From the IMG/VR virus record IMGVR_UViG_3300044993_000095, positions 1 through 35,727 of that record: a stretch of DNA of 35,727 bases; one strand, written 5' to 3'. The stretch's first letter is position 1, and the number at the start of each line of letters is the position of its first letter. Made by a program: the position numbers and the translations under genes. A model generated the notes under the pieces. That model saw only the letters and a list, made by a program, of their open reading frames with translations, was not told the DNA's origin and did no database searches. Shown here piece by piece: positions 1 to 32,877 of this stretch. This stretch comes from a virus (taxonomy: Duplodnaviria; Caudoviricetes).

Positions 1-202
1 GGCTGGGGGATATACACGAGTGGGTGTGTGGATGCAATGCCTGTGGGTGGTTGATGGCGCGTTGGATGGTTGCTTGGTTGACGCCGAAGCGTTGAGCGAG
101 TTGGCGTTGTGTTGGGCGTCTGCCGCAGGATGGGCAAGGGGTGAGGTAGGCAAGGCGGATGGCTTGGATGCGAGCGTAGTAGTCTGGCTTAGGGTATCGC
201 AT
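1..202 (-). CDS. Helix-turn-helix DNA-binding protein, runs off the left edge (absent from the ORF track)
   Basis: Manual translation from ATG at 202: MRYPKPDYYARIQAIRLAYLTPCPSCGRRPTQRQLAQRFGVNQATIQRAINHPQ... TQRQLAQRFGVNQATIQRAI is a classic HTH pattern, preceded by CPSC. No stop codon before the window edge. Confidence 0.65.
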   Translation of the reverse strand, partial: MRYPKPDYYARIQAIRLAYLTPCPSCGRRPTQRQLAQRFGVNQATIQRAINHPQALHPHTHSCISPS

Positions 203-221
203 GGTTTTGGTGGCTGGGAGT

Positions 222-614
222 GCCTTACACCGTGGTATGGAAGTGTAAGGCGGGTGTAAGGGGTTCAAACACCGGTATTTATAGGGTTCTTACACTTCTT
301 ACATTTATTACTCTATATATAGAGTATATAATTTATATAGGGGGTATATAGGGTGTATAGTAGGAAAATAAATAATATAAGGCGAAGGCCGTAAGTCCGT
401 GTAAGGCGTAAGGAAGCGTAAGGCGCGGTTGGTGTGTCTGTTGGGCGCGTTGGGTTTTTTTCTGAGTTGGATGCCAGTTGTGCCATGAGCGGGATTGGCT
501 GTATTTGATGCGTTCTTACACTCATTACGTTTCTTACACTGTGGTGTTAGTGTCGTGGCGCGAACGGATGGAGGGTGTTTTGCGCGGGAGTCGAGGTGGG
601 GGGCAGGTGTAAGG
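222..614. promoter_or_regulatory. AT-rich tract with clustered GTGTAAGG/CTTACAC motifs and an 18-bp palindrome; origin-like region
   Basis: Inverted pair GCCTTACAC (222-230) / GTGTAAGGC (243-251). Further (GT)GTAAG or CTTAC(AC) motifs at about 254, 289, 298, 391, 399, 407, 417, 515, 533 and 607. Perfect palindrome TACTCTATATATAGAGTA at 309-326 lies inside an AT-rich stretch (about 276-380) of an otherwise GC-rich sequence. The origin function is an inference. Confidence 0.5.
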
Positions 615-660
615 AATTTTTTGTGCTGGGTGGGTCGTTGGCGGGTGTTGCGGGACGTCG

Positions 661-987
661 ATGACCGCCTGGTGGTCGCGTTTTTGCCTAGATGACCGCC
701 TGGTGGTCGCGTTTTTGGTGGTGCTGGGTGCGAGATCGCGTCGTTGAGGCGTGAAATGACCGCCTGGTGGTCGCGTGTAGGGCCGAGATGACCGCCTGGT
801 GGTCGCGTTTTGGCCGAAATGACCGCTTAGTGGTCGCGTTTATGACCGCCTGGCGGTCGCGCTTATGGTTGTGATGGGTTCGAGGTCAGTTTTTGGGCCG
901 CCAATGACCGCCTGGTGGTCGCGTGCATGGTCGAGATGACCGCCTGGTGGTCGCGTGTAGGGCCGAAATGACCGCCTGGCGGTCGCG
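661..987. repeat. Nine copies of a 20-bp quasi-palindromic repeat ATGACCGCCTGG(T/C)GGTCGCG
   Basis: Copies start at 661, 692, 756, 788, 819 (variant ATGACCGCTTAGTGGTCGCG), 842, 904, 936 and 968. The core GACCGCC-T-GG(T/C)GGTC is a dyad. Start-to-start spacings are 31, 64, 32, 31, 23, 62, 32 and 32 bp. Confidence 0.95.
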
Positions 988-1123
988 TGGCGGGCGCATG
1001 ATGGGGGTGTGTTATCCGCATAGCGGTCGCTGATGACGATGGCGTCACGTCATGCTTGACGCGTCATTAGCGACGTGGAACAGTGTCATCACTGGCTCGG
1101 GGTGAGCCACAGAGGAGAGGGAC

Positions 1124-1381
1124 ATGACACCACAGACCGCTGTACAGCAGGTCGTCGCGGCGGATCTTGCCGCGCTCGGCACCATGATCGTGGAACTTGC
1201 GCGCGGGTACGAACGCGACGCCATTGCCGGCCACGCCAGCTGGGACATGGTCGGATTGCTACAGGCGATGCGCGAGCGCGCGGTTCAGGTCGTCGCGGCG
1301 GATCGACTGACACCGGGCTGCGACGAACTTGAGGTCGAGGCACAAGTGCTTGCCGAAGCCCAGCGCATGGTGCGGCCATGA
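1124..1381 (+). CDS. Hypothetical phage protein (85 aa)
   Basis: GGAGAGG RBS upstream. First of a series of coupled ORFs (ATGA overlap with the next gene). Confidence 0.7.
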   Translation: MTPQTAVQQVVAADLAALGTMIVELARGYERDAIAGHASWDMVGLLQAMRERAVQVVAADRLTPGCDELEVEAQVLAEAQRMVRP

Positions 1382-1587
1382 GCCTTCTTGATCCCGATCC
1401 GCAGCTTGCGCGCATTTTGGAGACCTACGACGCGGTCGAATATGGGTACATGGTGGTGCTGCGCAAGGCGGGGCAGCTATCGATTGCGGTGCGGGTGGAC
1501 GGCGACGATGACGCCATGGCGCTGGTGGATCGCATGGTTGCGGACGGCTGGAGCCGGGAGGAGTGTTATGAGATCGGGACGATGTGA
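1378..1587 (+). CDS. Hypothetical phage protein (69 aa)
   Basis: ATGA overlap with the upstream stop codon; normal protein composition. Confidence 0.65.
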   Translation: MSLLDPDPQLARILETYDAVEYGYMVVLRKAGQLSIAVRVDGDDDAMALVDRMVADGWSREECYEIGTM

Positions 1588-1596
1588 GGTGCCGCC

Positions 1597-1854
1597 ATGA
1601 GCACACTTGACGAGGACACGGCGAAGATGCTCGAGGTTGTGGATCGTTATCCGGATACGAGCGCCGCCAGCGCCGCCAGCGCGGACGAACAGGATCAGCA
1701 GCCTGATACAGGCGCCGCCGACGCGGACACGGCAACAATGCGCGAGCTGCTGAATCGTTACGACGAGCTGCGCTGGGCGGTGTCGGAACTGCGCGACTGC
1801 GTCGAGCGGCTGCGCAAAGATGTCGATAAGCTGCGCTGGCTGGTGTTGCCATGA
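1597..1854 (+). CDS. Hypothetical phage protein with C-terminal coiled coil (85 aa)
   Basis: GAGGTG RBS; C-terminal heptad-like segment LRWAVSELRDCVERLRKDVDKL. Confidence 0.65.
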   Translation: MSTLDEDTAKMLEVVDRYPDTSAASAASADEQDQQPDTGAADADTATMRELLNRYDELRWAVSELRDCVERLRKDVDKLRWLVLP

Positions 1855-1879
1855 GTGATCGCGTTGGGAGGCTCATGCG

Positions 1880-2320
1880 ATGACAAGCACTGTCACTGAG
1901 TCGGGTGGGCTGAATATCAATCGCAGTGCTGTTGAGCTGGGCGCGCTGGCGCTGCGCTGGGCGGAGGCGAACCAGGCGCTGCACGACTACCACATGCCGG
2001 CGGCGGCGCACGCGGAGCTGTGCATCATCGAGGCGATCAAGCAGGCGGAGTATGCCGGGCTGACGCTGTTGCAGGACGACCTGAGAGCGGCGCTGACGCA
2101 CGTGGATGGGTGCTGGAGGGCGCACTGTGCGAAGGAAGATGCGCTGGCGGCTGAGGAGAAGCGAGCGCGCGAAGACTTGATCGCTGCTGGAGTGAACCCG
2201 CTGAGTCAGGGGGATGTGGATCGGCTGTACGGGCTGCTGGATCGATCCGGGCTGACCGTCGAGCAGCGGACGCTGGTCGAGGTGGAGATGGAGCGGGAGC
2301 TGGGAGCGGATTACACGTGA
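1880..2320 (+). CDS. Hypothetical alpha-helical protein (146 aa) immediately upstream of the repeat array
   Basis: GGGAGG upstream. The TGA stop at 2318-2320 lies 5 nt before the first array repeat. Confidence 0.7.
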   Translation: MTSTVTESGGLNINRSAVELGALALRWAEANQALHDYHMPAAAHAELCIIEAIKQAEYAGLTLLQDDLRAALTHVDGCWRAHCAKEDALAAEEKRAREDLIAAGVNPLSQGDVDRLYGLLDRSGLTVEQRTLVEVEMERELGADYT

Positions 2321-2325
2321 TGGGG

Positions 2326-4009
2326 GATTGAGACACCGCGCATGAGAGAACCAGAGTTGATGATCGAGACAAGTCGGCAGAGAGAACCATGTCGTCGGAT
2401 CGAGACAATGCACGCGAGAGAACCACGATAGGGGATCGAGACATTTGATCGGAGAGAACCAGTTGAGGCGATCGAGACATCTGCGGCGAGAGAACCATGA
2501 TCGCCGATCGAGCCATGCCTTGAGAGAGCACCCCGCGCATTGATCGAGACACGCCAGCCGAGAGAACCAAAGATGAAGATCGAGACATGCGAGCGGAGAG
2601 AACCAATGGCCCGGATCGAGACACGAAATGCGAGAGAACCAGATCTGGTGATCGAGACATTCAGCGGGAGAGAACCACTGGCGAGGATCGAGACAAAACG
2701 CCTGAGAGAACCAAGGGCGCGGATCGAGACATACGTCGGGAGAGAACCACGACGCGAGATCGAGACAAGTTCACAGAGAGAACCAATGAAGCCGATCGAG
2801 ACAGCGACGGCGAGAGAACCAAGCACGCGTATCGAGACATTTAGTGGGAGAGAACCATGATGATCGATCGAGCCATGTGCGACGAGAGAATCATGATATG
2901 CGATCGAGACAGGGATATGGAGAGAACCAAACTCGAAGATCGAGACAGGACCTGAGAGAGAACCACATGCGCGGATCGAGACACCTGACGCGAGAGAACC
3001 ATGCATGCGGATCGAGACATCCATTGGGAGAGAACCATGCAATGCGATCGAGACAGCCAGGTTGAGAGAACCAAACTCGAAGATCGAGACACCGAAGGCG
3101 AGAGAACCAAGACTCGTGATCGAGACAGGGCGCTGGAGAGAACCATCCGCGCGGATCGAGACACATTAAAGGAGAGAACCAAGCCGAGAGATCGAGACAA
3201 GATATCGGAGAGAACCAATATTGATGATCGAGACAGGAGTATCGAGGGCACCAAGCACGCGGGTTGAGACATCGCCGACGAGAGAACCAAGGTACGAGAT
3301 CGAGACACGGTTACGGAGAGAACCACGACGCGAGATCGAGACATCAGGCCAGAGAGAACCATGTTCGAAGATCGAGACAAGCATCGGGAGTGAACCATTT
3401 GCTGGGATCGAGACAGTTGCGCAGAGAGAACCAGGGTGTTGGATCGAGACACGCGATGTGAGAGAACCAGAGTAACGGATCGAGACATAGTGCGCGAGAG
3501 AACCATGCTGGAAGATCGAGACACGCGGTTCGAGAGAACCAAAGCTGGCGATCGAGACAGTCTCGCGGAGAGAACCATACTCGCGGATCGAGACAGGAGG
3601 CGGGAGTGAACCAAAAATAGCGATCGAGACATATATGTGGAGAGAACCACGCCGAAAGATCGAGACAAGAGACGCGAGAGAACCATCACTGGTGATCGAG
3701 ACAGGAGTATCGAGGGCACCAAGCACGCGGATTGAGACATGCATGCGGAGAGAACCAAAGGTGAAGATCGAGACATGCCCGACGAGAGAACCACGACTGG
3801 CGATCAAGACACTGTAGGTGAGAGAACCAAGGTACGAGATCGAGACACGGTTACGGAGAGAACCACAGCTGCGGATCGAGACATCTACGCGGAGAGAACC
3901 AATTTCCAGGATCGAGACAGGGGGCGCGAGAGAACCAAAAAAATTGATCGAGACATCGGCCGGGAGAGAACCATCGAAATTGATCGACCCACGACCAGCG
4001 ACAGCAACA
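2326..4009 (+). repeat. TIGR-like dual-repeat guide-RNA array: 46 complete 36-nt units plus a degenerate 47th
   Basis: Unit = GATCGAGACA + 8 variable nt + GAGAGAACCA + 8 variable nt. Units start at 2326 + 36n with no indel through 3982. By manual reading, 39/46 first repeats and 40/46 second repeats match consensus exactly. A degenerate unit GATCGACCCA-N8-GACAGCAACA sits at 3982-4009. The array lies directly upstream of a Nop-domain gene. Confidence 0.93.
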
Positions 4010-4044
4010 TCTGACACAACCGACGGATCAACCAAGGAGAAATC

Positions 4045-4857
4045 ATGGATACACTCGAACCGATTGCACGACTGACGAAGGACCTTGCGAACGCGGCGCG
4101 CACGTTGAGCGCAGGCGAGGCGCGCTTCCTGGTGGACGCGTACTACGCGATGCAGGAGAACCGCATCCGCACGCACGCGCAGGTGAGGGCGTTGACGGAG
4201 TCCAATGAGCCGCACGACGTGCTCGCGTGGCTGGCGGCGCAGGACGAAGCGCTCGAAGGGCAGATCAAGCGCGCGCTCGGCAAGTACGCCGAGTCGAAGC
4301 CGGTCGGTGAGTGGGCGATGAGCGTCAAGGGCATCGGCCCGGTCATCACCGCCGGTCTGCTGGCGCACATCGACATTACGAAGGCCCCGACGGTCGGGCA
4401 CATCTGGCGCTTTGCGGGTCTCGACCCGACGGTGACGTGGGACAAGGGCCAGAAGCGGCCCTGGAACGCATCGCTCAAGACGCTCTGCTGGAAGATCGGC
4501 GAGTCGTTCGTGAAGGTGTGCAACGCCGAGGATGCGTTTTACGGGCACGTCTACGCGCAGCGCAAGGAGCTGGAGACGCGCCGCAACGAGGCGGGCGAGT
4601 ACGCGGAGCAGGCCAAGGCGATGCTGGCGAAGAAGAAGTTCCGCAACGAGACGGACGCGAAGAAGCACTACGAGGCGGGCCGCCTGCCGCCAGCGCACAT
4701 TCATGCGCGTGCCAAGCGGTATGCGGTGAAGCTGTTCCTGGCGCACTACCACGAGGTGGCGTACAAGGACCACTACAAGACGGAGCCGCCGCTGCCGTAT
4801 GCGATTGCGCATCTTGGGCATGCGCACAAGATCGCCGTGCCGTCGAGGCTGACATGA
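4045..4857 (+). CDS. tasA: TIGR-associated Tas protein, TasA type (IS110/Nop-like RNA-binding domain, no nuclease domain)
   Basis: AAGGAG RBS just upstream. N-terminal coiled-coil, then the IS110 Transposase_20/Nop-like motif WAMSVKGIGPVITAGLLAHI...IWRFAGLDP, and C-terminal HIHARAKRYAVKLFLAHY. No N-terminal DEDD RuvC domain, no HNH, and no IS110 catalytic 'SG' after GLxP. Adjacent to the 36-nt dual-repeat array. Confidence 0.85.
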   Translation: MDTLEPIARLTKDLANAARTLSAGEARFLVDAYYAMQENRIRTHAQVRALTESNEPHDVLAWLAAQDEALEGQIKRALGKYAESKPVGEWAMSVKGIGPVITAGLLAHIDITKAPTVGHIWRFAGLDPTVTWDKGQKRPWNASLKTLCWKIGESFVKVCNAEDAFYGHVYAQRKELETRRNEAGEYAEQAKAMLAKKKFRNETDAKKHYEAGRLPPAHIHARAKRYAVKLFLAHYHEVAYKDHYKTEPPLPYAIAHLGHAHKIAVPSRLT

Positions 4858-5093
4858 TCACCAACGAGCACACCGCGCCGTGGCTGGCCGCCATGCGGGA
4901 GATCGAGGCCGAGCCGCCGTACCGCGATGCAGACCCGCTGTTTGAGCGCGCCGAGCGGCTGGTGCAGATTCGAAACGAGCTGGCGCATCTGCGCGTGCGT
5001 GCCAGCCAGTTGCGCGCCGACCTGTACGCGACCGAGGCGCGCATCGGCGAGCTGCGGGGCGAGTTCGCGGCGCTGGCGGGAGAGCTGCCGTGA
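4854..5093 (+). CDS. Hypothetical coiled-coil protein (79 aa), translationally coupled to tasA
   Basis: ATG at 4854 overlaps the tasA TGA (ATGA): MITNEHTAPWLAAMREIEAEPP...ELP. This is the C-terminal part of track ORF 4311..5093. Confidence 0.65.
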   Translation: MITNEHTAPWLAAMREIEAEPPYRDADPLFERAERLVQIRNELAHLRVRASQLRADLYATEARIGELRGEFAALAGELP

Positions 5094-5605
5094 TCTGCAC
5101 CACGCTGAACAAGATCCGCGAGCACGGCCCGTGCGCCAAGGGGTGGCAGAAGCTGCTGAAGCATCTCGGCAAGACGGAGGCGGATGACGAGCCGTTGCCG
5201 CTGCTGACCGTGCTCGATGTCTGCGGGCTGGACGATGCGTTGTGGTGCATGCGAACCGTGCCTGAGCACGATGTGCTGTGGCGTCACTATGCGGTTGACT
5301 GTGCGGAGCGGTTTGCGCACCTGCTCATGGACAAGCGCATCAGCAGGGCGTTGCGCGTGACACGACGGCACGCGCTGGGGCAGGCGACCGACAAGGAATT
5401 GGCCGCCGCATGGGACGCCGCAGGGGCCGCATGGGCCGCAAGGGCTTCAGGGGCCGCATGGGCCGCAGGGGCTTCAGGGGCCGCTGTGGACTCCGCATGG
5501 GACGCCGCAGGGGACGCCGCAAAGGCCGCCGAAGAGGCATGGCAAACTGCCCGCCTGCGCAAGCTCTTGACTGACGGCGCATGGTCGCCGGTGGAGGCAG
5601 CATGA
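5090..5605 (+). CDS. Conserved-type phage hypothetical protein with Ala/Trp-rich repeats
   Basis: TTLNKIREHGPCAKGWQKLL...DDALW N-terminus and AAWDAA/AAWAA repeats resemble a common small phage protein family. GTGA overlap with the upstream gene. Confidence 0.75.
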   Translation: MICTTLNKIREHGPCAKGWQKLLKHLGKTEADDEPLPLLTVLDVCGLDDALWCMRTVPEHDVLWRHYAVDCAERFAHLLMDKRISRALRVTRRHALGQATDKELAAAWDAAGAAWAARASGAAWAAGASGAAVDSAWDAAGDAAKAAEEAWQTARLRKLLTDGAWSPVEAA

Positions 5606-5802
5606 CCGACTACGCATGGCTGTTCGCACTGTCGATTGTCGTCGGCACGGCGATGCTGACGGCCTCATGGATGACGTGGTGGCTGGCGCGGCGCTACGTG
5701 CGCCGCATCCGCCATCGCCTGTTCGCGCACATCCCGCCGTCGCGGTGGCCGCAGGTGGACTACCGCGTGGGCAAGAGCGTCAGACCGAGGGATTACGAAT
5801 GA
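5602..5802 (+). CDS. Small membrane protein (66 aa)
   Basis: GGAGG RBS and ATGA overlap. Hydrophobic segment AWLFALSIVVGTAMLTASWMTWWL followed by Arg-rich residues. Confidence 0.6.
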   Translation: MTDYAWLFALSIVVGTAMLTASWMTWWLARRYVRRIRHRLFAHIPPSRWPQVDYRVGKSVRPRDYE

Positions 5803-5990
5803 GAAACAGGGGAAAGCTGACCGACGACCAGGTGCGCGCAATCCGTGCGGTCGGAGAAGCGCGCAGCCGTACGCCAAGCGATGACGAGCTGGCGAAAACC
5901 TACGGCATTAGCAAGCGTACCGTGCGCGGCATCATGGCGCGGGAGCTGTACAAGTCGGTGCCGGATCACCCGCCCGAGTCCACGTCATAA
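5799..5990 (+). CDS. HTH DNA-binding protein (63 aa)
   Basis: ATG at 5799 (ATGA overlap): MRNRGKLTDDQVRAIR...SDDELAKTYGISKRTVRGIM, an HTH pattern. Confidence 0.7.
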   Translation: MRNRGKLTDDQVRAIRAVGEARSRTPSDDELAKTYGISKRTVRGIMARELYKSVPDHPPESTS

Positions 5991-8363
5991 CTGCACTTCG
6001 GGGTCGCAATCCAGGTCGGCGTCAGGGAAGACCTGCGCCGACTTTTTGCTTTGGTGCCTCTGTCCGACTGGCTCGTCGGCGGCACTGATCCGGCTTGGAC
6101 GCCATACGCGGATGGACCGACCGTTCTCCCACTTGACGGTGCTGACGAACCCGGCGCGGCGCAGGATCGAGCGCACGCGGGAAACCGCTCTATCATCCTG
6201 CTTGTCCGTGGTCAGTTCCAAAAGCTGGTTACCGAGCATTTCCTCGGGCCGCACGAATGACCGTTGCATCGCGTAGTTCAGCACGCGTTCGGTCCATGGA
6301 TCGGTGATCCTGGCATCCTCATTGAGAGCGGTGGCAACGTCTTGAGGCACGTCCCAGTGCGGCTCATTGCGCAGCACCCTGGCGACCGCTTCGGCGAAGC
6401 ATTGCTCGCGGTTGGCGCGCATCCAATCGAGATCGATCTTGCCGGTCCGGACGCGCCAGAAGCGGCGCGCGCCGGTATCGGACTTGTTCCAGTCGTCGCG
6501 GTTGGTCGAGCAGGTAAAGACGCACTGACGCGGATAGTCGGCGGGCAGCATGTCGTACGGCGAGCGGAACGTGTCTACGCGGTTGGTGATGACGGCCTTT
6601 ACTTTTTCGACGCTGGCGCGCTCGAAAGACGACATTTCCGACAGTTCGACGAGAATCCGCCCTTGCAGGCACAAGTAGAAGTCTTTGCTGGTGATCGGCT
6701 CGATGGCTTCGGTGTACCAGTCGCCACCGATGATGCGCAGGATGCTGGACTTGCCGTTACCCTCGCCGCCTTCCAGCAGCATGACGTTGTCCATCTGGCA
6801 GCCTGGCTCTAGCACGCGGCGAGCCATGCCGACGAAGAAGCAGCGGCCCACGGCGGCATGGTACTCGTCGTCGTCGGTGCCGAATGCGGCTGGTAGGACC
6901 AGCTTCAGCCGTTCTTTGCCATCCCACTTCAGCGAGTGCAGCCATTCCTGCGCGCAGTTGCGGCGATGCAGGGAGGTGTACGCGCCGATGCCGGCCTTGA
7001 TCGTGTTCGGGCTGATCTTGGTCAGTGCGAGGTTGCGTTGCAGCCAAACGGTAAGTGCTTGCAGGGTGGCGGTATCGATGGGGCGCGCGACGCCGGTCAT
7101 CCAGGTCGTCATCGGGCGCGAGAGGAAGGTATCGAACCAGAACACGCCATCGAAGTATTCGCAGAAGCGATGGACCGTGTCTTCGTTCGCGATCGCGCGA
7201 TTGTTGACGATGAACTCTTGGGGAATGCCGATCTGGTGCCAGCGGCCATCCATGCGATGCGCCAGCAGCCTATCTAGCCGCGGATCGAACGAAGCCGGGG
7301 CATCCTCGTTGTGGACGATACTGAGCGCGTGAGTTGCAGGGTCCGGCGTGATGGGCGGCGACCCGGATGCGAGGTGAGGGGTGCTGCTAGGCGTAGCATC
7401 GGTCGCATGAAGGCCGGACCCTGCGGCCTGAAGTCTAACAGAGGTGATATGCCGTCCGCCATTCCTTTTGATCCACCGGGCGATGGCTTTGGCGTCCATG
7501 CCGGCGGCCACGGCGTCGGCGGCGTCCCATCCCTCTGACTGGCCGGTGGGGTCGATCAGGCGAATGTCGTGGCAGCCGAGTTTGATGAGCTTCTCGGCCA
7601 CCTTGGCCATGGCCGCCCGGCCGGGCTCGTCGTTGTCGGGCCAGAGGTCCACGTTGCGGCCGGCGAGTGGCGACCAGTCCACGGTGTCAACGGCTAACGC
7701 GCCACCGGGCCAGGTCATGACGACGTGCCGGCGCAGGACGGGGCGCAGGGCATCGGCGCATTTCTCGCCCTCCACCAGCATCACCCGGTCATGGGGGCGC
7801 TGTGCGAGTGCGTCGAGGCCGTACAGCGGGCGCGGCTTCGGTGCCGCCTTGGCCTGCCAGCCGGTCGAGGTCCAGCGCCACGGTGAGAACTGCTTCGACC
7901 CGTCCGGTAGATCGTACCGGGCGACGTACATGAGCAGCCCTTCCGCGTCGCGGTAGGCGTGCAGCATGGTGTGCGGGCCGTGCTTGCGGTGCGGTCCTGG
8001 CGGCTCCGCATCTTCGGGCGGGCGCTGTAGCGGTGCGTCGATCACTGTCGGCTTGCGCTTCGGAGACTGGGTAGGCGCATGGTCGTGGCCGTTCAAGGCG
8101 CCGAGCGCGCGGGCCGCCTCTGCCTGCGTCAGGCCGTGGATGGCCGCGTACAGGCTGATGAGGTCGCCGCCTTTTTCGCCGGTGGCGAAGTCCATCCACA
8201 GCCCGCTGTTGAGGTTGATCGACAGCGAGTCGCCCTCGTCGCCGCGCACCGAGCCCACGACATACTCATTTCCCCGACGCCGGCCTGCGGGCAACCACTC
8301 GCGGACGTAGGACTCTGCGGACGCCAGCAACTGCGCCGCCAAACCGCTGAAGTCGATAGCCAC
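5985..8363 (-). CDS. Primase-helicase (Toprim primase + VirE/VapE-like P-loop helicase)
   Basis: Toprim motifs MLVEGEKCAD, WPGG, WPDNDEPG and GWDAAD. Walker A LLEGGEGNGKSS, Walker B-like IVELSEM, then FRSPY and STNRDD...DTGARRFW. Probable GTG start at 8363 with AAGGAG RBS (the track ORF extends to 8435). Confidence 0.88.
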   Translation of the reverse strand: MAIDFSGLAAQLLASAESYVREWLPAGRRRGNEYVVGSVRGDEGDSLSINLNSGLWMDFATGEKGGDLISLYAAIHGLTQAEAARALGALNGHDHAPTQSPKRKPTVIDAPLQRPPEDAEPPGPHRKHGPHTMLHAYRDAEGLLMYVARYDLPDGSKQFSPWRWTSTGWQAKAAPKPRPLYGLDALAQRPHDRVMLVEGEKCADALRPVLRRHVVMTWPGGALAVDTVDWSPLAGRNVDLWPDNDEPGRAAMAKVAEKLIKLGCHDIRLIDPTGQSEGWDAADAVAAGMDAKAIARWIKRNGGRHITSVRLQAAGSGLHATDATPSSTPHLASGSPPITPDPATHALSIVHNEDAPASFDPRLDRLLAHRMDGRWHQIGIPQEFIVNNRAIANEDTVHRFCEYFDGVFWFDTFLSRPMTTWMTGVARPIDTATLQALTVWLQRNLALTKISPNTIKAGIGAYTSLHRRNCAQEWLHSLKWDGKERLKLVLPAAFGTDDDEYHAAVGRCFFVGMARRVLEPGCQMDNVMLLEGGEGNGKSSILRIIGGDWYTEAIEPITSKDFYLCLQGRILVELSEMSSFERASVEKVKAVITNRVDTFRSPYDMLPADYPRQCVFTCSTNRDDWNKSDTGARRFWRVRTGKIDLDWMRANREQCFAEAVARVLRNEPHWDVPQDVATALNEDARITDPWTERVLNYAMQRSFVRPEEMLGNQLLELTTDKQDDRAVSRVRSILRRAGFVSTVKWENGRSIRVWRPSRISAADEPVGQRHQSKKSAQVFPDADLDCDPEVQL

Positions 8364-10360: not shown

Positions 10361-11344
10361 GTGACACAAGTGGAATACCCCAAGACACGCGAGGAATGGC
10401 TCGCGCTGCGGCACAAGCATGTCGGCAGCACGGAAGTCGCTGCACTGTTCGGCCTGTCGCCCTATTCGACCGCATTCGAGTTGGCGGTCGTCAAGAGGCA
10501 GTCGGACCCGGACCCGGAGTTCGAGGGCAACGAGCGCATGCGGTGGGGCATCCGTGTGCAGCATGCCATTGCAAAAGGCATTGCATCGGAGTATGGCGTC
10601 AAGGTGCGCGCGATCAGCGGCTACGCCATTCACAGTTACCAGCACATCCGCGCGGGCGCGTCGTTCGACTACGAGATCATCGGGCTGTCGGATGGCGCGG
10701 GCGTGCCGAAAAACTCGTTGCTGCGGGATATGTACGCCAAGCACGGCGCGGGCATTCTCGAGATCAAGAACGTGGACACGTTCGTCTACCGCAACGACTG
10801 GACGGACGGCGAGCCGCCCGTGCACATCGAGTTGCAGTTGCAGCACCAGCTAGCGTGCATCGGTCGGTTTTGGGGCGCGATTGGCGCGCTGATCGGCGGC
10901 AACGAGTTGCAGGTGTTCGTTCGGGAGCGCGACGACGCCGTGCACAAGGCGATTGTGGCCAAGTGCGAAAAGTTTTGGGCCGACGTCGACAACGGCATCA
11001 TGCCGCCCGTGGACCTGCCGGCAGACGCCGACATCGTCGCCAAGCTGTACCGCTACGCCGAGCCGGGCAAAGTGATGGACGCCACCAGCAACGAAGAGAT
11101 TGCGGAGCTGTGCCGGGGTTACGTCGCTGCGGCAAAGCAAGCGCGCGAGGCCGAAGCGACCAAGGATACGCTCAAGGCCAAGCTGCTGATGCTGATTGGC
11201 GATGCCGAGCGCGTCATCGTCGATGGGTTCAATGTCAGCGCCGGCATGGTCGGTGATACCGAAGTGCCGGCCTACACCCGCAAGGGTTATCGCAACGTCC
11301 GTATCACGGCCAAGAAGCCATCAAAGGAGAAGTCACGTGAGTAA
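10361..11344 (+). CDS. YqaJ-like viral recombinase exonuclease (lambda-exo/RecE partner)
   Basis: EEWLALRHKHVGSTEVAALFGLSPY, GASFD, ILEIKN and QLQHQL motifs; upstream of RecT. Confidence 0.9.
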   Translation: MTQVEYPKTREEWLALRHKHVGSTEVAALFGLSPYSTAFELAVVKRQSDPDPEFEGNERMRWGIRVQHAIAKGIASEYGVKVRAISGYAIHSYQHIRAGASFDYEIIGLSDGAGVPKNSLLRDMYAKHGAGILEIKNVDTFVYRNDWTDGEPPVHIELQLQHQLACIGRFWGAIGALIGGNELQVFVRERDDAVHKAIVAKCEKFWADVDNGIMPPVDLPADADIVAKLYRYAEPGKVMDATSNEEIAELCRGYVAAAKQAREAEATKDTLKAKLLMLIGDAERVIVDGFNVSAGMVGDTEVPAYTRKGYRNVRITAKKPSKEKSRE

Positions 11345-11576
11345 GGTCTACATCGTCAACATGGGTGCCGCGCAGGACGGCAAGCCTGTCGTGTCGGCGC
11401 TGGTGCGTGCCAAGTCCAAGGCTGCGGCGCTCAAGTTCGTGGTCAAGAACTACGCCAAGGTCACCCGCGCGACGGTCGAGCAGGCCGTGGAGCTTACGCG
11501 CGCCGGGGTTGTCATCAACGACGCCGATGCGCCCGACATTACGCCCACCACGACACCGGAGCCTGCCAATGAATGA
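11337..11576 (+). CDS. Hypothetical phage protein (79 aa)
   Basis: GTG at 11337 overlapping the upstream gene end: MSKVYIVNMG...ALVRAKSKAAALKFV. Confidence 0.65.
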   Translation: MSKVYIVNMGAAQDGKPVVSALVRAKSKAAALKFVVKNYAKVTRATVEQAVELTRAGVVINDADAPDITPTTTPEPANE

Positions 11577-12408
11577 GAACGCTATCGCCGTTGTCTGCCG
11601 CGCCATTGCGGACCCTGCCATGCAGGACAAGTTCCGCTCTGTGCTGCCGCCCAACGTGTCATTGGACCGATTCACGCGCGTCACGCTGACCGCCGTGCAG
11701 AACAATCCCGCCCTTCTGGAGTGCGACCGAGCCAGCCTGTACAACGCCTGCGTGACGGCTGCACAGCGCGGATTGCTGCCTGACGGCAAGGAAGGCGCGC
11801 TGGTGTCGTTCAACACCAAGCAGGGCGACCAGTGGGTCAAGAAGGTTCAGTTCATGCCGATGCCCGAGGGCATCATCAAGGAGATGGCGAAGGCCGGCAT
11901 CAAGGCGTATGCCGCCAGCGTGTACGAGCACGACACCATTGAGATTTGGTCGGACGACGACGGGCAGCATGTCATGCACCGGCCCAAGGTGTTCGGTGAT
12001 CGCGGCGAGCGCGTGGGCGCGTATGCCAGTGCCAAGGATGCAGACGGTCGCACGTACGTCGAGGCGATGAACATGGCCGAGCTTGCCCGCGCGGCTGCGG
12101 CGTCTCGCTCCAAGGACAAGGCGGGCAACCCTATCGGCCCGTGGAAGGACTGGCCGGAACGCATGGAGCAGAAGACCGTCCTGCACCGGCTGCGCAAGCG
12201 GGTCGCGATCCTGGGCGATGACGACGTGGTGGAGCGCCTGCGCGAGGACGATGAGGCCGCCTTGCTCGACCATGCGCCGACGCCGGCGGTCGAGGCTGTC
12301 GAGCCGCCGTCTGCGCCCTCGCCCGCCAAGCGCCCCAAGACGCTGCAAGCCATCGTCGAGGCGGAGCCGGAGCCTGCGCCGCCGTACAGCGATGAAGAAG
12401 TGTTCTGA
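11569..12408 (+). CDS. recT: RecT family single-strand annealing protein
   Basis: ATG at 11569. VLPPNVSLDRFTRVTLTAVQNNPALLECDRASL...AAQRGLLPDG...GPWKDWPERMEQKTVLHRL is a typical RecT signature. Confidence 0.9.
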   Translation: MNENAIAVVCRAIADPAMQDKFRSVLPPNVSLDRFTRVTLTAVQNNPALLECDRASLYNACVTAAQRGLLPDGKEGALVSFNTKQGDQWVKKVQFMPMPEGIIKEMAKAGIKAYAASVYEHDTIEIWSDDDGQHVMHRPKVFGDRGERVGAYASAKDADGRTYVEAMNMAELARAAAASRSKDKAGNPIGPWKDWPERMEQKTVLHRLRKRVAILGDDDVVERLREDDEAALLDHAPTPAVEAVEPPSAPSPAKRPKTLQAIVEAEPEPAPPYSDEEVF

Positions 12409-13578: not shown

Positions 13579-13872
13579 ATGGATACATTGAATCGCCAAC
13601 CGCTGCTTGAAAAAACGCCGGCCGCACAGCGCGCCGGGGTTTGCACCCGCACCTTGACCGCTGCCGCCGACCGGGGCGAGTTGCCCGTCATCCGAACCGT
13701 CCGAGGCGCTCGGTTGTTTGAAGCCGACGCCGTAGACCGGTGGGCCGCAACGCGAACACCCGCGGGGAAGGCGGGAGCGCAGGTCAATAGGGCAGCGGCT
13801 TGCCCCCCAACGCAGCGCACGACTCGATCAGAACCCGGTAGCGGGCCAGCGCCGCACTCTGCGCCGCCATGA
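13579..13872 (+). CDS. Excisionase-like (HTH_17-type) DNA-binding protein
   Basis: AAQRAGVCTRTLTAAADRGELPVIRTVRGARLFEADAVDRW. The C-terminal tail overlaps the convergent spanin gene. Confidence 0.6.
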   Translation: MDTLNRQPLLEKTPAAQRAGVCTRTLTAAADRGELPVIRTVRGARLFEADAVDRWAATRTPAGKAGAQVNRAAACPPTQRTTRSEPGSGPAPHSAPP

Positions 13873-30845: not shown

Positions 30846-31406
30846 TCAACTGCACGCCGCCGCAGCCTCCGTTGTCGGAGCTGTTCCCCACCACGTCACG
30901 TTCTTGACGCGCTTGTACGTGCGACCTCGGTACGTGTATACGGTGGGCCCATAGCATTCCGATCCAGTCGGCACGAAACCGATGACCGTCGTGCCACGCG
31001 TGCCGTCAGCATTGATGCGATACACCGGGTTCATGTTGAGCGCTGCCACGACTGCGACGACAAGGCTCGACGGCGGATTGGGCGGCGACGGCGGTGGCGC
31101 AGGAATGGCCTTGCACGCCTCGTTGCTCGGCGCGGACTCAAGGCCGTTGGCGACCGCCGTGACGTGGTAGCAGTACGTGACGCCATTGGGCGCGCTCGTG
31201 TGCGTGTAGGTGACGGCGCTAGTCGTGGTGATCAACGACTTCGACTGCCCCTGCACGCCGCCGAACACGCGATAGGTGAGCGCGGCAGTGATGGGTGTTC
31301 CGTCCACGTTTTGCGTCGGGGCCACCCACGTCAGCGTGGCAGTGCCCGCGTGCGAGAGCGCTGGAATAGCCATTGTTGCAAGAACGAGCCAACGAACAAG
31401 CTTCAT
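30846..31406 (-). CDS. Fibronectin type III domain protein with Sec signal peptide
   Basis: Signal MKLVRWLVLATMAIPALSHA|G. FN3 pattern ATLTWVAP...YRVF...YCYHVTAVANGLESAPSN, then a Pro-rich linker. Confidence 0.75.
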   Translation of the reverse strand: MKLVRWLVLATMAIPALSHAGTATLTWVAPTQNVDGTPITAALTYRVFGGVQGQSKSLITTTSAVTYTHTSAPNGVTYCYHVTAVANGLESAPSNEACKAIPAPPPSPPNPPSSLVVAVVAALNMNPVYRINADGTRGTTVIGFVPTGSECYGPTVYTYRGRTYKRVKNVTWWGTAPTTEAAAACS

Positions 31407-32095
31407 TCCGCTGCCTCCTGCTCAAGTTCGACGCCTACGTCTTGATGACACGTCGCGCACAGCTTGTAGGGCGACGTGCCCATCGCTTCGAGGTTGTCGG
31501 TGATATGCCCAAACACGCCGACGCCGGTGCCGTCGAAGCAACAGCGCGTCAGCCGCCCGTCGGATAGCACCATTGCCCAGCCTCCGCGCACCCACGGGCA
31601 CGGCATCCGTTGTGCGCTCACGTGCCATTTGACTTGACCGGCCCAATCGACAGCCGAGATTGCCGGGTCAGCACTGACGCCGGCGAGGATGCCCGCACGC
31701 TTGAGTGCTTCGACTGCTGGCCCCGCCCGTTCCGGCCTGTGCAGCGACACGTACACGCGCGGGCGATAGGGAGCCATCGCCTGCGCCATGTCGTCATCTA
31801 CCAACAGGCCGTTGGTCGCAAGCACAATGTCATGCTCATCACCCAACGCCTCACGCGCAAGGGCGAGCATCGGGATGAACTCCGGATGCATCGTGCTCTC
31901 GCCAATGCCCGCCAAGTTCAACTCTCCCTGCGTGCCGCGCTTCTTGAAGTGGTACGCCCATCCAATGGCCGCCAGGTACGTGTTTGCGTCCATGTCGCGC
32001 TTCTCGCGCTTCATGGTCGGATGCACGCAATAGCGGCACCGCAGATTGCACCGCGAGGTGATCTCAATCTGGTGGATGCTGCGCAGCGGGATCAC
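31403..32095 (-). CDS. Radical SAM protein with SPASM/twitch-like C-terminus
   Basis: IEITSRCNLRCRYC (CxxxCxxC), GIGESTMHP, ATNG and C-terminal C...GRLTRCC...CATC. Confidence 0.88.
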   Translation of the reverse strand: MIPLRSIHQIEITSRCNLRCRYCVHPTMKREKRDMDANTYLAAIGWAYHFKKRGTQGELNLAGIGESTMHPEFIPMLALAREALGDEHDIVLATNGLLVDDDMAQAMAPYRPRVYVSLHRPERAGPAVEALKRAGILAGVSADPAISAVDWAGQVKWHVSAQRMPCPWVRGGWAMVLSDGRLTRCCFDGTGVGVFGHITDNLEAMGTSPYKLCATCHQDVGVELEQEAAE

Positions 32096-32295
32096 GCAAG
32101 CGGCTCCGTCTTGGTGACGTTGCCTTCGCTGTCGCGCTCGACGACGATGGCGATGTTGCCATCGCCAAGCTGCACCGCTTCCTTGCCAGCCTGCGCAAGC
32201 TCAGCGCGCACTTCGTAGAACAACTGCGCGGCGAGCTTCCACTCACGCGCGTCGAAGTGCTGCTTCGAGCGGGTTGCTTTGTCGACAATTGACAT
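32092..32295 (-). CDS. Hypothetical protein (67 aa)
   Basis: GGAGG RBS; coupled to the radical SAM gene. Confidence 0.6.
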   Translation of the reverse strand: MSIVDKATRSKQHFDAREWKLAAQLFYEVRAELAQAGKEAVQLGDGNIAIVVERDSEGNVTKTEPLA

Positions 32296-32310
32296 CGTGA
32301 TCGCCTCCTA

Positions 32311-32877
32311 TCAAGTGCTGTGCGCGAGGTCGTGCGAGCCGACGCGGACGCGGTACGTGAGCGCGAGGAAATCGCTGTTGCCCAGCGTCACGCCGAGGCC
32401 GTTGGCCGCAGCCAGGTAGTCGCCGTTCGTCGCGTGCGAAGTGGTGAGGTCCGCGATGAACGCGGTCGCCAACTGCACCGACGTGATGTTGTCCGCCGCG
32501 CCGGCCCACGTCTGGGTCATGAACGCCCATTCGCGCGACTGCGCCGACGCGCCCGTCACGTTCGAGGTCTTGCGCGACACCTCGCCCCAGTTCGGCTGAT
32601 CCGATCCGAGCGTGTGCGCAGCGGTCGCGGTGCCGATGCCGATGACGAAGAACGGCGTCGTGCCGGTGCCCTGCACGGCGCGGTTGGCGAGGCGGTTCAA
32701 GCCCTGCGCCAGCACGATGTTGCGGACGAATCGTTCCTCCACTTCTCCGGACGCGCGCGTCACCCGCACCTGAAACCCGCCGAGCGGCAGAATCTGGTCC
32801 GCGATCCGCGCGCGCTCCTGGTCAAGCAGGGCCTGCACCTGCTCGCCGGTGTACGTCTTAGAGGTGTCGATCTTCAT
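32311..32877 (-). CDS. Putative virion structural protein
   Basis: RNIVLAQGLNRLA...FFVIGIGT...EVSRK...DFLALTYRV pattern seen in phage fibre/neck-associated proteins. Confidence 0.6.
   Translation of the reverse strand: MKIDTSKTYTGEQVQALLDQERARIADQILPLGGFQVRVTRASGEVEERFVRNIVLAQGLNRLANRAVQGTGTTPFFVIGIGTATAAHTLGSDQPNWGEVSRKTSNVTGASAQSREWAFMTQTWAGAADNITSVQLATAFIADLTTSHATNGDYLAAANGLGVTLGNSDFLALTYRVRVGSHDLAHST

What the first reader, a model, noticed from the sequence alone, without database searches (positions are those of the whole stretch)
2326..4857. Phage-encoded RNA-guided system: 46-unit 36-nt dual-repeat array plus Nop-domain protein (TIGR-TasA-like)
Seen: 46 exactly phased 36-nt units with two alternating fixed 10-mers (GATCGAGACA, GAGAGAACCA), each followed by 8 variable nt. 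The array ends about 35-60 nt before the start of a 270-aa ORF carrying the IS110/Nop-like motif (SVKGIGPVITAGLLAHI...WRFAGLDP). Known: TIGR-Tas systems consist of 36-nt dual-repeat, dual-spacer arrays processed into guides that load onto Nop-domain Tas proteins and recognise both DNA strands without a PAM. Inference: this phage expresses about 46 distinct guides and a TasA effector, possibly against competing phages, plasmids or host genes. It is not CRISPR (no cas genes, spacers far too short) and standard annotation would miss it.
Basis: partly seen in the sequence, partly recalled or inferred. Interest (0 to 1): 0.95.

Follow-up and report, generated by a model that had tools for sequence, protein, structure and literature searches.

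The report
Phage TIGR-TasA with fast-changing guides
A phage carries 46 two-part guide units in front of a nuclease-free Tas protein that is already in the published TIGR-Tas catalogue and likely works as an RNA-guided DNA-binding repressor, and nearly identical phages carry largely different, reshuffled guide sets or lack the whole module.

Summary
Confirmed. Bases 2326-3981 hold 46 exactly phased 36-nt units (45 distinct): two alternating 10-nt repeats, each followed by an 8-nt spacer. A 270-aa gene follows. The protein passes the NCBIfam TIGR-Tas model, folds like TasH/TasR without a nuclease domain and keeps the Tyr/His RNA-processing dyad. It is a dual-repeat TIGR-TasA, and an identical protein is listed in Table S1 of Faure et al. 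2025, so the system is known. It likely cuts its transcript into 36-nt guides and binds 16-bp DNA sites without cutting; this is inferred from homologues, and no RNA data were found. What this locus adds is population data. Phages with about 98% identical tasA carry arrays of 12, 24 and 25 units. Only 7 of the window's 45 units recur, shared blocks are out of order, half-spacers are re-paired, one unit is in all four arrays, and a co-occurring allele lacks the whole cassette. Two adjacent guides have predicted targets overlapping by 13 nt (3 of 1000 shuffles). No host or natural target was found. This scan reported TIGR-TasA loci and half-guide shuffling before on other DNA.

The parts
2326..3981 (+). 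Dual-repeat TIGR array: 46 units of edge repeat (GATCGAGACA), spacer A (8 nt), loop repeat (GAGAGAACCA), spacer B (8 nt)
3982..3987 (+). 3'-truncated terminal edge repeat
   Evidence: same end in L001-L004
3226..3261 (+). Unit 26: the only unit found in all four distinct arrays, with a variant loop repeat
3694..3729 (+). Unit 39: second copy of unit 26
2938..3009 (+). Units 18 and 19, whose predicted targets overlap exactly over 13 nt
4035..4039 (+). Shine-Dalgarno-like AGGAG before tasA
   Evidence: sequence; function inferred
4045..4857 (+). tasA: 270-aa Nop-domain protein without a nuclease domain; predicted processing dyad Y252/H259
4854..5093 (+). 79-aa ORF of unknown function overlapping the tasA stop; lost together with array and tasA in the empty allele; found only beside the closest siblings among the loci tested
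2322..5091 (+). Extent of the accessory cassette, skipped by a co-occurring allele
   Evidence: joint 2321 to 5092 in run X5; loose ends at 2321 in X1 and X5
1880..2320 (+). 146-aa ORF of unknown function, left flank of the cassette
5090..5605 (+). 171-aa ORF (phrog_18326, unknown function), right flank of the cassette
10361..12408 (+). YqaJ/RecE-like exonuclease (10361-11344) and RecT annealing protein (11365-12408); candidate cause of array shuffling, link untested

Best explanation
This is a dual-repeat TIGR array with its nuclease-free TasA gene, carried as an accessory cassette in a tailed phage, and TasA likely cuts the array transcript into 36-nt guides and uses them to bind and likely repress matching 16-bp DNA sites outside the assembled part of its own genome. 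Shown here: array anatomy, Tas fold, no nuclease domain, Tyr/His dyad, an allele without the cassette, and different, out-of-order, re-paired guide sets in near-identical phages. Inferred from homologues: co-transcription with the flanking genes, cleavage inside the edge repeat by Y252/H259, a TasA dimer holding one guide, spacer A pairing one DNA strand and spacer B the other without a PAM, and blocking of transcription. Inferred from the array comparison: guide sets turn over mostly by exchange at both short repeats between co-infecting relatives and within the array, plus point change, possibly through the phage's own RecE/RecT pair. The targets are most likely host DNA or competing mobile elements; which of the two is open.
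For: Protein: NF052498 223.9 bits, cut-off 100. phmmer against PDB: TaTasR E 2e-13, SpTasH 3e-12, IS621 0.27. AlphaFold2 model, pLDDT 93.3: the top 10 Foldseek rows are all TasH/TasR; VIA-align Z 19.9 (rmsd 3.6, 221 aligned) to TasH, 18.6 (2.7, 194) to TasR, 13.4 (3.5, 176) to IS621. Model residue 20 aligns to TasH residue 65, leaving no room for HNH or RuvC. SpTasH Y289/H296 align to Y252/H259; H259 is invariant in 119 of 119 homologues. Array: repeat positions 3 and 8 can pair in 44 of 46 edges and 46 of 46 loops; positions 4 and 7 pair in 46 of 46 edges but 2 of 46 loops, as the paper describes for edge versus loop (PMC12045711). 16 of 20 related viral loci hold 36-nt periodic arrays. Repression by a TasA is shown for another protein in 10.64898/2026.09.09.750476. 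Turnover.
Against: No target was found: 0 of 89 distinct guides match the window at up to 1 mismatch in the published geometry with gaps -2 to +3; window plus sibling contigs gave 0 exact and 3 one-mismatch hits against a mean of 2.0 for shuffled pairings. The host is unknown. Repression was shown in E. coli for a different TasA; I did not establish whether that one uses dual-repeat guides. Re-pairing halves at random would give mostly guides without a 16-bp target, which fits poorly with every unit being functional. The edge boxes (AU/ACA) differ from the loop boxes (AG/CCA), whereas the paper says they almost always covary. No promoter-like site near the array and no terminator-like site after it were found by a simple scan. 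The RecE/RecT link rests only on gene presence and on PMC3945230 (abstract).
Confidence: 0.85

Rival explanations
1. Same system, but the guides act on the phage's own genome (lysis-lysogeny or late-gene control) or help integration by bending DNA.
For: The window lacks part of the genome: a 34-kb sibling covering the same span is estimated 62% complete. An excisionase-like gene lies at 13579-13872 (below cut-off). The paper raises the integrase-aid idea. One unit is kept in all four arrays. The 18-nt composite of units 18-19 matches the phage's own tape-measure gene at 15 of 18.
Against: No self-target at up to 1 mismatch in the window and no excess in sibling contigs. Half-spacers occur in the genome no more often than in Markov copies of it. 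Most guides differ between strains whose genomes are 90-98% identical, and the cassette can be absent.
Confidence: 0.1
2. TasA works, but most units are neutral by-products of recombination, and only a few guides (such as unit 26) are under selection.
For: Half-spacers recur with unrelated partners (4 of 82 A halves, 11 of 76 B halves; chance 0.17 and 0.11 pairs). Array length varies from 12 to 46. Only one unit is shared by all four arrays.
Against: Phase and box pairs are almost perfectly kept in all arrays. Spacers are strand-biased (CA 0.041 vs TG 0.095, CC 0.041 vs GG 0.080), which suggests selection on the RNA. Units 18 and 19 look sampled from one DNA site.
Confidence: 0.35
3. A degenerate IS110 transposase beside an unrelated repeat, or a 12-residue protein repeat read on the minus strand.
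For: Pfam Transposase_20 hit at residues 92-130 and PHROG 4285 'transposase'. One minus-strand frame has 1 stop in 552 codons over the array.
Against: IS110 model 26.1 bits against a cut-off of 140; no N-terminal RuvC-like domain; arrays accompany 16 of 20 relatives. Stop-giving triplets are rare at every spacer offset (4, 4, 1, 3, 0, 1 among 157 spacers), so the open frame follows from composition.
Confidence: 0.02

Closest known systems
Dual-repeat TIGR-TasA (Faure et al., Science 2025, PMC12045711; example FpTasA of Flavonifractor plautii)
   Same: Solo Nop-domain protein beside a 36-nt dual-repeat array in a phage. A protein identical to this one by reading is row 152 of Table S1, sheet ProteinInfo, with its siblings in the same 50% cluster.
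   Different: 46 units against 'most often 5 to 15' and a mean near 16 (65,635 units in 4,126 arrays). 8-nt spacers with 10-nt repeats, where FpTIGR has 9-nt spacers. The strain-level array comparison and empty allele were not in the parts of the papers I read.
SpTIGR-TasH of Salicola phage CGphi29 (PDB 9W03, 9W04, 9VZX, 21KL; PMC13421893)
   Same: Same 10+8+10+8 register; edge AAGCGAGCCA and loop AAGACAACCA line up with the window's repeats; Y289/H296 dyad kept; best structural match.
   Different: No HNH nuclease here; 23-24% identity; the edge box pair is U-A here and G-C there; the array lies upstream of the gene here and downstream there.
Nuclease-free Tas repressors MbTasA and dead TasR (10.64898/2026.09.09.750476)
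   Same: No nuclease; RNA-guided DNA binding and repression is the likely shared output.
   Different: That study centres on stem-loop systems without the Tyr/His loop; this protein has the loop and a dual-repeat array.
IS110-family bridge-RNA recombinases (IS621, ISCro4)
   Same: Shared Nop-type RNA-binding fold (Z 13.4) and the GIGP motif.
   Different: No RuvC-like catalytic domain; far below the family cut-off; array of short guides instead of one bridge RNA.

Membership tests
TIGR-Tas, dual-repeat, TasA | Nop-domain protein of the Tas family | tested here: met
   NF052498 above cut-off; sequence and fold matches to TasH/TasR; identical protein in the catalogue
TIGR-Tas, dual-repeat, TasA | No HNH or RuvC domain (solo Nop domain) | tested here: met
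   All-helical model; only about 19 residues precede the part that aligns to TasH residue 65
TIGR-Tas, dual-repeat, TasA | Adjacent array of two alternating 8-12-nt repeats with short spacers, 36-nt unit | tested here: met
   46 units, 10+8+10+8, 63 nt upstream of the gene
TIGR-Tas, dual-repeat, TasA | Box D/box C base pair in both repeats and one extra pair in the edge repeat | tested here: met
   3-8 pair in 44 of 46 edges (U-A) and 46 of 46 loops (45 G-C, 1 G-U); 4-7 pair in 46 of 46 edges (43 C-G, 3 U-G). Edge and loop boxes differ in sequence, unlike the usual tendency.
TIGR-Tas, dual-repeat, TasA | Array typically ends in a truncated edge repeat and a terminator | tested here: inconclusive
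   Truncated edge present at 3982-3987; no terminator-like site there; the array runs into tasA
TIGR-Tas, dual-repeat, TasA | C-terminal Tyr/His dyad for guide processing | tested here: met
   Y252/H259 align to SpTasH Y289/H296
TIGR-Tas, dual-repeat, TasA | Array transcribed and processed to 36-nt RNAs bound by the protein | not testable with these tools
   Needs small-RNA sequencing or pull-down
TIGR-Tas, dual-repeat, TasA | PAM-free binding of both DNA strands by the two spacers | not testable with these tools
   No natural target found; needs EMSA or a reporter
IS110 transposase | N-terminal RuvC-like (DEDD) domain and family-level score | tested here: not met
   26.1 bits against cut-off 140; no such domain in the model
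CRISPR-Cas | One repeat of about 25-36 nt with spacers of similar size, and cas genes | tested here: not met
   Two alternating 10-nt repeats with 8-nt spacers; no cas family among 27 ORFs scanned against Pfam and 82 against PHROGs, of 231 mechanical ORFs; no Rfam match in 1-6000
Box C/D snoRNP Nop56/58 | Nop domain with N-terminal fibrillarin-binding domain | tested here: inconclusive
   Not among the listed fold-search rows, which does not exclude a shared fold; the protein has no such N-terminal domain

The most novel reading that the evidence does not exclude
This phage population shows how TIGR arrays are built: new units are sampled from real target DNA (adjacent units 18 and 19 read one site, 3 nt apart, with A-B spacings that differ by one base), then whole units and single half-spacers are shuffled between co-infecting phages at the 10-nt repeats by the phage's own RecE/RecT, giving a combinatorial repressor library that needs no Cas1-Cas2-like machinery.
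Probability: 0.2. Interest if true: 0.75.

Novelty: already known. Interest (0 to 1): 0.33.

Why it matters
The system type and this protein are published, so the call is right but not new. Two questions that both key papers leave open are how TIGR arrays gain guides and what the guides target. Here four different arrays and an empty allele sit at one locus in near-identical phages, some in the same sequencing run, so long reads and a host genome from the same kind of sample could test both directly. A 270-aa, PAM-free, likely self-processing DNA binder from runs labelled hot spring or microbial mat may also be of interest as a tool.

Tried and rejected
Single-sequence AlphaFold model: pLDDT 40.7, not used. 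Expression: no RNA holder listed among 15 runs; this says nothing either way. Self-targets: none in the window in either pairing and four orientations beyond chance level, none in sibling contigs. Origin of half-spacers from the own genome: an apparent excess over column shuffles vanished against Markov copies of the genome, also with box-like flanks. Target scans of IMG/VR for 3 of 89 guides: 15, 83 and 23 matches, scattered over many data sets. Only the 23 for unit 18 were examined: none continued as unit 19 predicts, and 6 of 23 lay in one protein family that I did not identify. The only genome-collection relatives of tasA were two Acidobacteriota assemblies at 60-67% identity; phage DNA 4900-20000 found no prophage and no CRISPR-spacer-like match in 251 and 201 genomes drawn around them, with only 2 candidates scored per genome. 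RecT and a lysis-region protein gave no host hint. The metagenome scan for the repeat pattern gave 2 loci, both from more distant phages. Array transcript 2326-3060 has no marked fold (z -1.68). Excess of one-mismatch spacer pairs: 19 against 8.4 pooled (maximum 16 in 300 shuffles), but per slot 8 and 6 do not exceed the shuffle maxima 9 and 6, and the control ignores dinucleotide bias: weak. Leader-end polarity as in CRISPR: not seen, first and last units differ in all four arrays. No complex prediction was run: a TasA dimer would pass by likeness to solved structures.

Full report
Observation. The array is real. From 2326 to 3981 there are 46 units of exactly 36 nt, each GATCGAGACA, 8 variable nt, GAGAGAACCA, 8 variable nt, followed by a truncated first repeat at 3982-3987. 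The first repeat is exact in 39 of 46 units and the second in 40 of 46; 45 units are distinct. Neither 10-mer occurs elsewhere in the window at up to one mismatch. The 270-aa ORF starts 63 nt after the last full unit, behind AGGAG. In run X1, five listed contig pieces without a mismatch cover the array at depth 384-458, except 3255-3314; X1 may be the window's source. The window is part of a tailed phage: tape measure, tail tube, tail fibre, spanin-like, RecE-like and RecT genes. The runs that hold half or more of the locus are labelled hot springs or microbial mat metagenome (6 of 15 rows).

The protein. It scores 223.9 bits on NCBIfam NF052498 (TIGR-Tas; cut-off 100) and 26.1 on the IS110 model (cut-off 140). 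Against PDB sequences it finds TaTasR (E 2e-13) and SpTasH (3e-12), and IS621 only at 0.27. An AlphaFold2 model from 119 sequences (pLDDT 93.3) has only TasH and TasR chains in its first ten Foldseek rows. VIA-align gives Z 19.9 (rmsd 3.6, 221 aligned) for TasH, 18.6 (2.7, 194) for TasR and 13.4 (3.5, 176) for IS621. The alignment to TasH starts at model residue 20 and TasH residue 65, so there is no nuclease domain: this is TasA. The residues that process guides in SpTasH, Y289 and H296 (PMC13421893), align to Y252 and H259; H259 is invariant and Y252 nearly so among 119 homologues. The family is large: 7032 of 7997 scored candidates pass E 0.001.

The array as guides. GATCGAGACA is the edge repeat and GAGAGAACCA the loop. 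The array begins and ends with the former. Positions 3 and 8 can pair in 44 of 46 edges and 46 of 46 loops, and positions 4 and 7 in 46 of 46 edges but 2 of 46 loops. This is the pattern described for box D/box C plus one extra edge pair (PMC12045711). The Salicola phage array has the same 10+8 register, and relatives change the 4-7 pair to other pairing bases. One departure: the edge box pair is U-A and the loop pair G-C, whereas the paper says the boxes almost always covary between the two repeats; L028 and L029 share this edge. From the published cut positions and 8-nt 3' overhang I derive the target as spacer A followed by the reverse complement of spacer B, 16 bp, with small gaps tolerated. 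Spacers are strand-biased, poor in CA and CC and rich in TG and GG; selection against box-C-like words or tolerance of wobble pairs are my inferences.

How it likely works. Inferred from homologues: the array and tasA are transcribed with the small same-strand genes around them; TasA cuts inside each edge repeat; a dimer holds one 36-nt guide and opens a matching duplex without a PAM; lacking a nuclease, it blocks transcription, as shown for another TasA in E. coli (10.64898/2026.09.09.750476). None of these steps was tested on this locus.

What the siblings add. Four IMG/VR contigs carry tasA at 98-100% amino-acid identity; three of them were measured at 97.6-98.2% nucleotide identity over 790 nt. 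Their arrays sit between the same flanks but have 24, 12, 25 and 25 units, the last two identical. Only 7 of the window's 45 distinct units recur in any sibling; shared blocks are out of order (L002 units 2-3 are window 26-27, its units 10-11 are window 17-18); first and last units differ in all four distinct arrays. Four of 82 A halves and 11 of 76 B halves occur with unrelated partners, against 0.17 and 0.11 identical pairs expected by chance; one 8-mer is used in both slots. Shared runs begin and end in both repeats. One unit with a variant loop is in all four arrays and twice in the window. In run X1 the window's array (depth about 400) and an L003-type array (277) occur together, and other runs list further joints at low depth; the tool warns that joints in repeats can come from other organisms. 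One contig of run X5 (depth 147.5, against about 30 over tasA) joins 2321 to 5092, skipping the array, tasA and a 79-aa ORF; loose ends at 2321 in X1 and X5 agree; the joint is not listed for X9-X11. So the cassette is accessory, and arrays change much faster than the gene, without visible polarity. Exchange at the repeats is the simplest cause. The phage's RecE/RecT pair is a candidate because Rad52-like phage recombinases work on diverged DNA (PMC3945230, abstract only); this link is untested. These comparisons rest on short-read assemblies of a repetitive locus, and the runs may be one campaign.

Targets. None found. No guide of 89 matches the window at up to one mismatch in the published geometry; siblings add no excess over shuffled pairings; half-spacers are not enriched in the phage genome; scans for three guides in IMG/VR gave scattered matches; the host was not found. 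The genome is incomplete, so self-targeting is not excluded. One lead: the predicted targets of adjacent units 18 and 19 overlap exactly over 13 nt if their A-B spacings differ by one base; shuffled pairings reach this in 3 of 1000 trials. Slippage inside the array does not explain it, because the extra letters are not those of the neighbouring repeats. It is one event among 89 guides, noticed by eye before the test, and no sequence holding the whole site was found.

Comparison with what is known. It works like, and is a member of, the dual-repeat TIGR-TasA class. A protein identical by reading is row 152 of Table S1 (sheet ProteinInfo) of Faure et al. 2025. The array is long: most have 5-15 units and the mean in the TIGRFinder set is near 16; earlier notes of this scan mention arrays of 45 and about 55 units (unchecked). 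Both papers call spacer acquisition and natural targets unknown. My searches for strain-level array comparisons listed no such paper, but the library is partial.

What I read. PMC12045711: parts 1-4 of 12, passages, supplement list, Table S1 by term search and its first part (held cut at 9,182 rows); its supplementary PDF was too large to read and may show this array or target searches. 10.64898/2026.09.09.750476: parts 1-4 of 7 and passages. 10.64898/2026.08.11.744272: passages. PMC13421893: passages and section 15. PMC3945230: abstract. Preprint supplements were not seen, and TIGRSafari is not public.

Verdict. Observation confirmed, interpretation supported, system already known and catalogued. 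Interest 0.33, for the population snapshot that makes array turnover and target questions testable.

Noticed in passing
window 661-987: Nine copies of a 20-nt hairpin-like element (ATGACCGCCTGGTGGTCGCG) at spacings of 23-64 nt upstream of the small-gene cluster, with the same spacing in siblings L047 and L048. Could be protein-binding sites or origin iterons; an AT-rich stretch lies at about 275-380.
   Followed up: partly
window 5090-5605; L001 5058-5369 and 6242-6772: The gene right of the cassette has a low-complexity Ala-rich repeat (5417-5531), occurs twice in L001, and its start is joined to several different upstream sequences in runs X5 and X11: this region is a mosaic of exchangeable modules.
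   Followed up: partly
L014 4824-5104: A tasA relative (51% identity) is followed by nine repeat-like sites 35 nt apart rather than 36: a possible 35-nt TIGR unit.
   Followed up: no
L017 675-5385: A tasA relative (58% identity) with a 20-residue acidic insertion in the coiled-coil tip and several separate 36-nt array blocks on both sides of the gene.
   Followed up: no
window 4842: Siblings carry a 12-nt insertion near the end of tasA (274 aa against 270); the window's allele is the short one.
   Followed up: no
window 31403-35488 (-): Radical-SAM-like gene and an 876-aa frame with glycosyltransferase and methyltransferase domains next to structural genes; possible virion or DNA modification.
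   Followed up: no
L145, L147, L157, L158, L163, L165: The predicted target of unit 18 falls in one conserved coding motif of a protein family in 6 of 23 viral matches (five near-identical); from recall it resembles a phage prohead protease motif, not tested.
   Followed up: partly
L029 5-104: Three units with the same repeats precede a tasA start that breaks off after about 50 codons.
   Followed up: no
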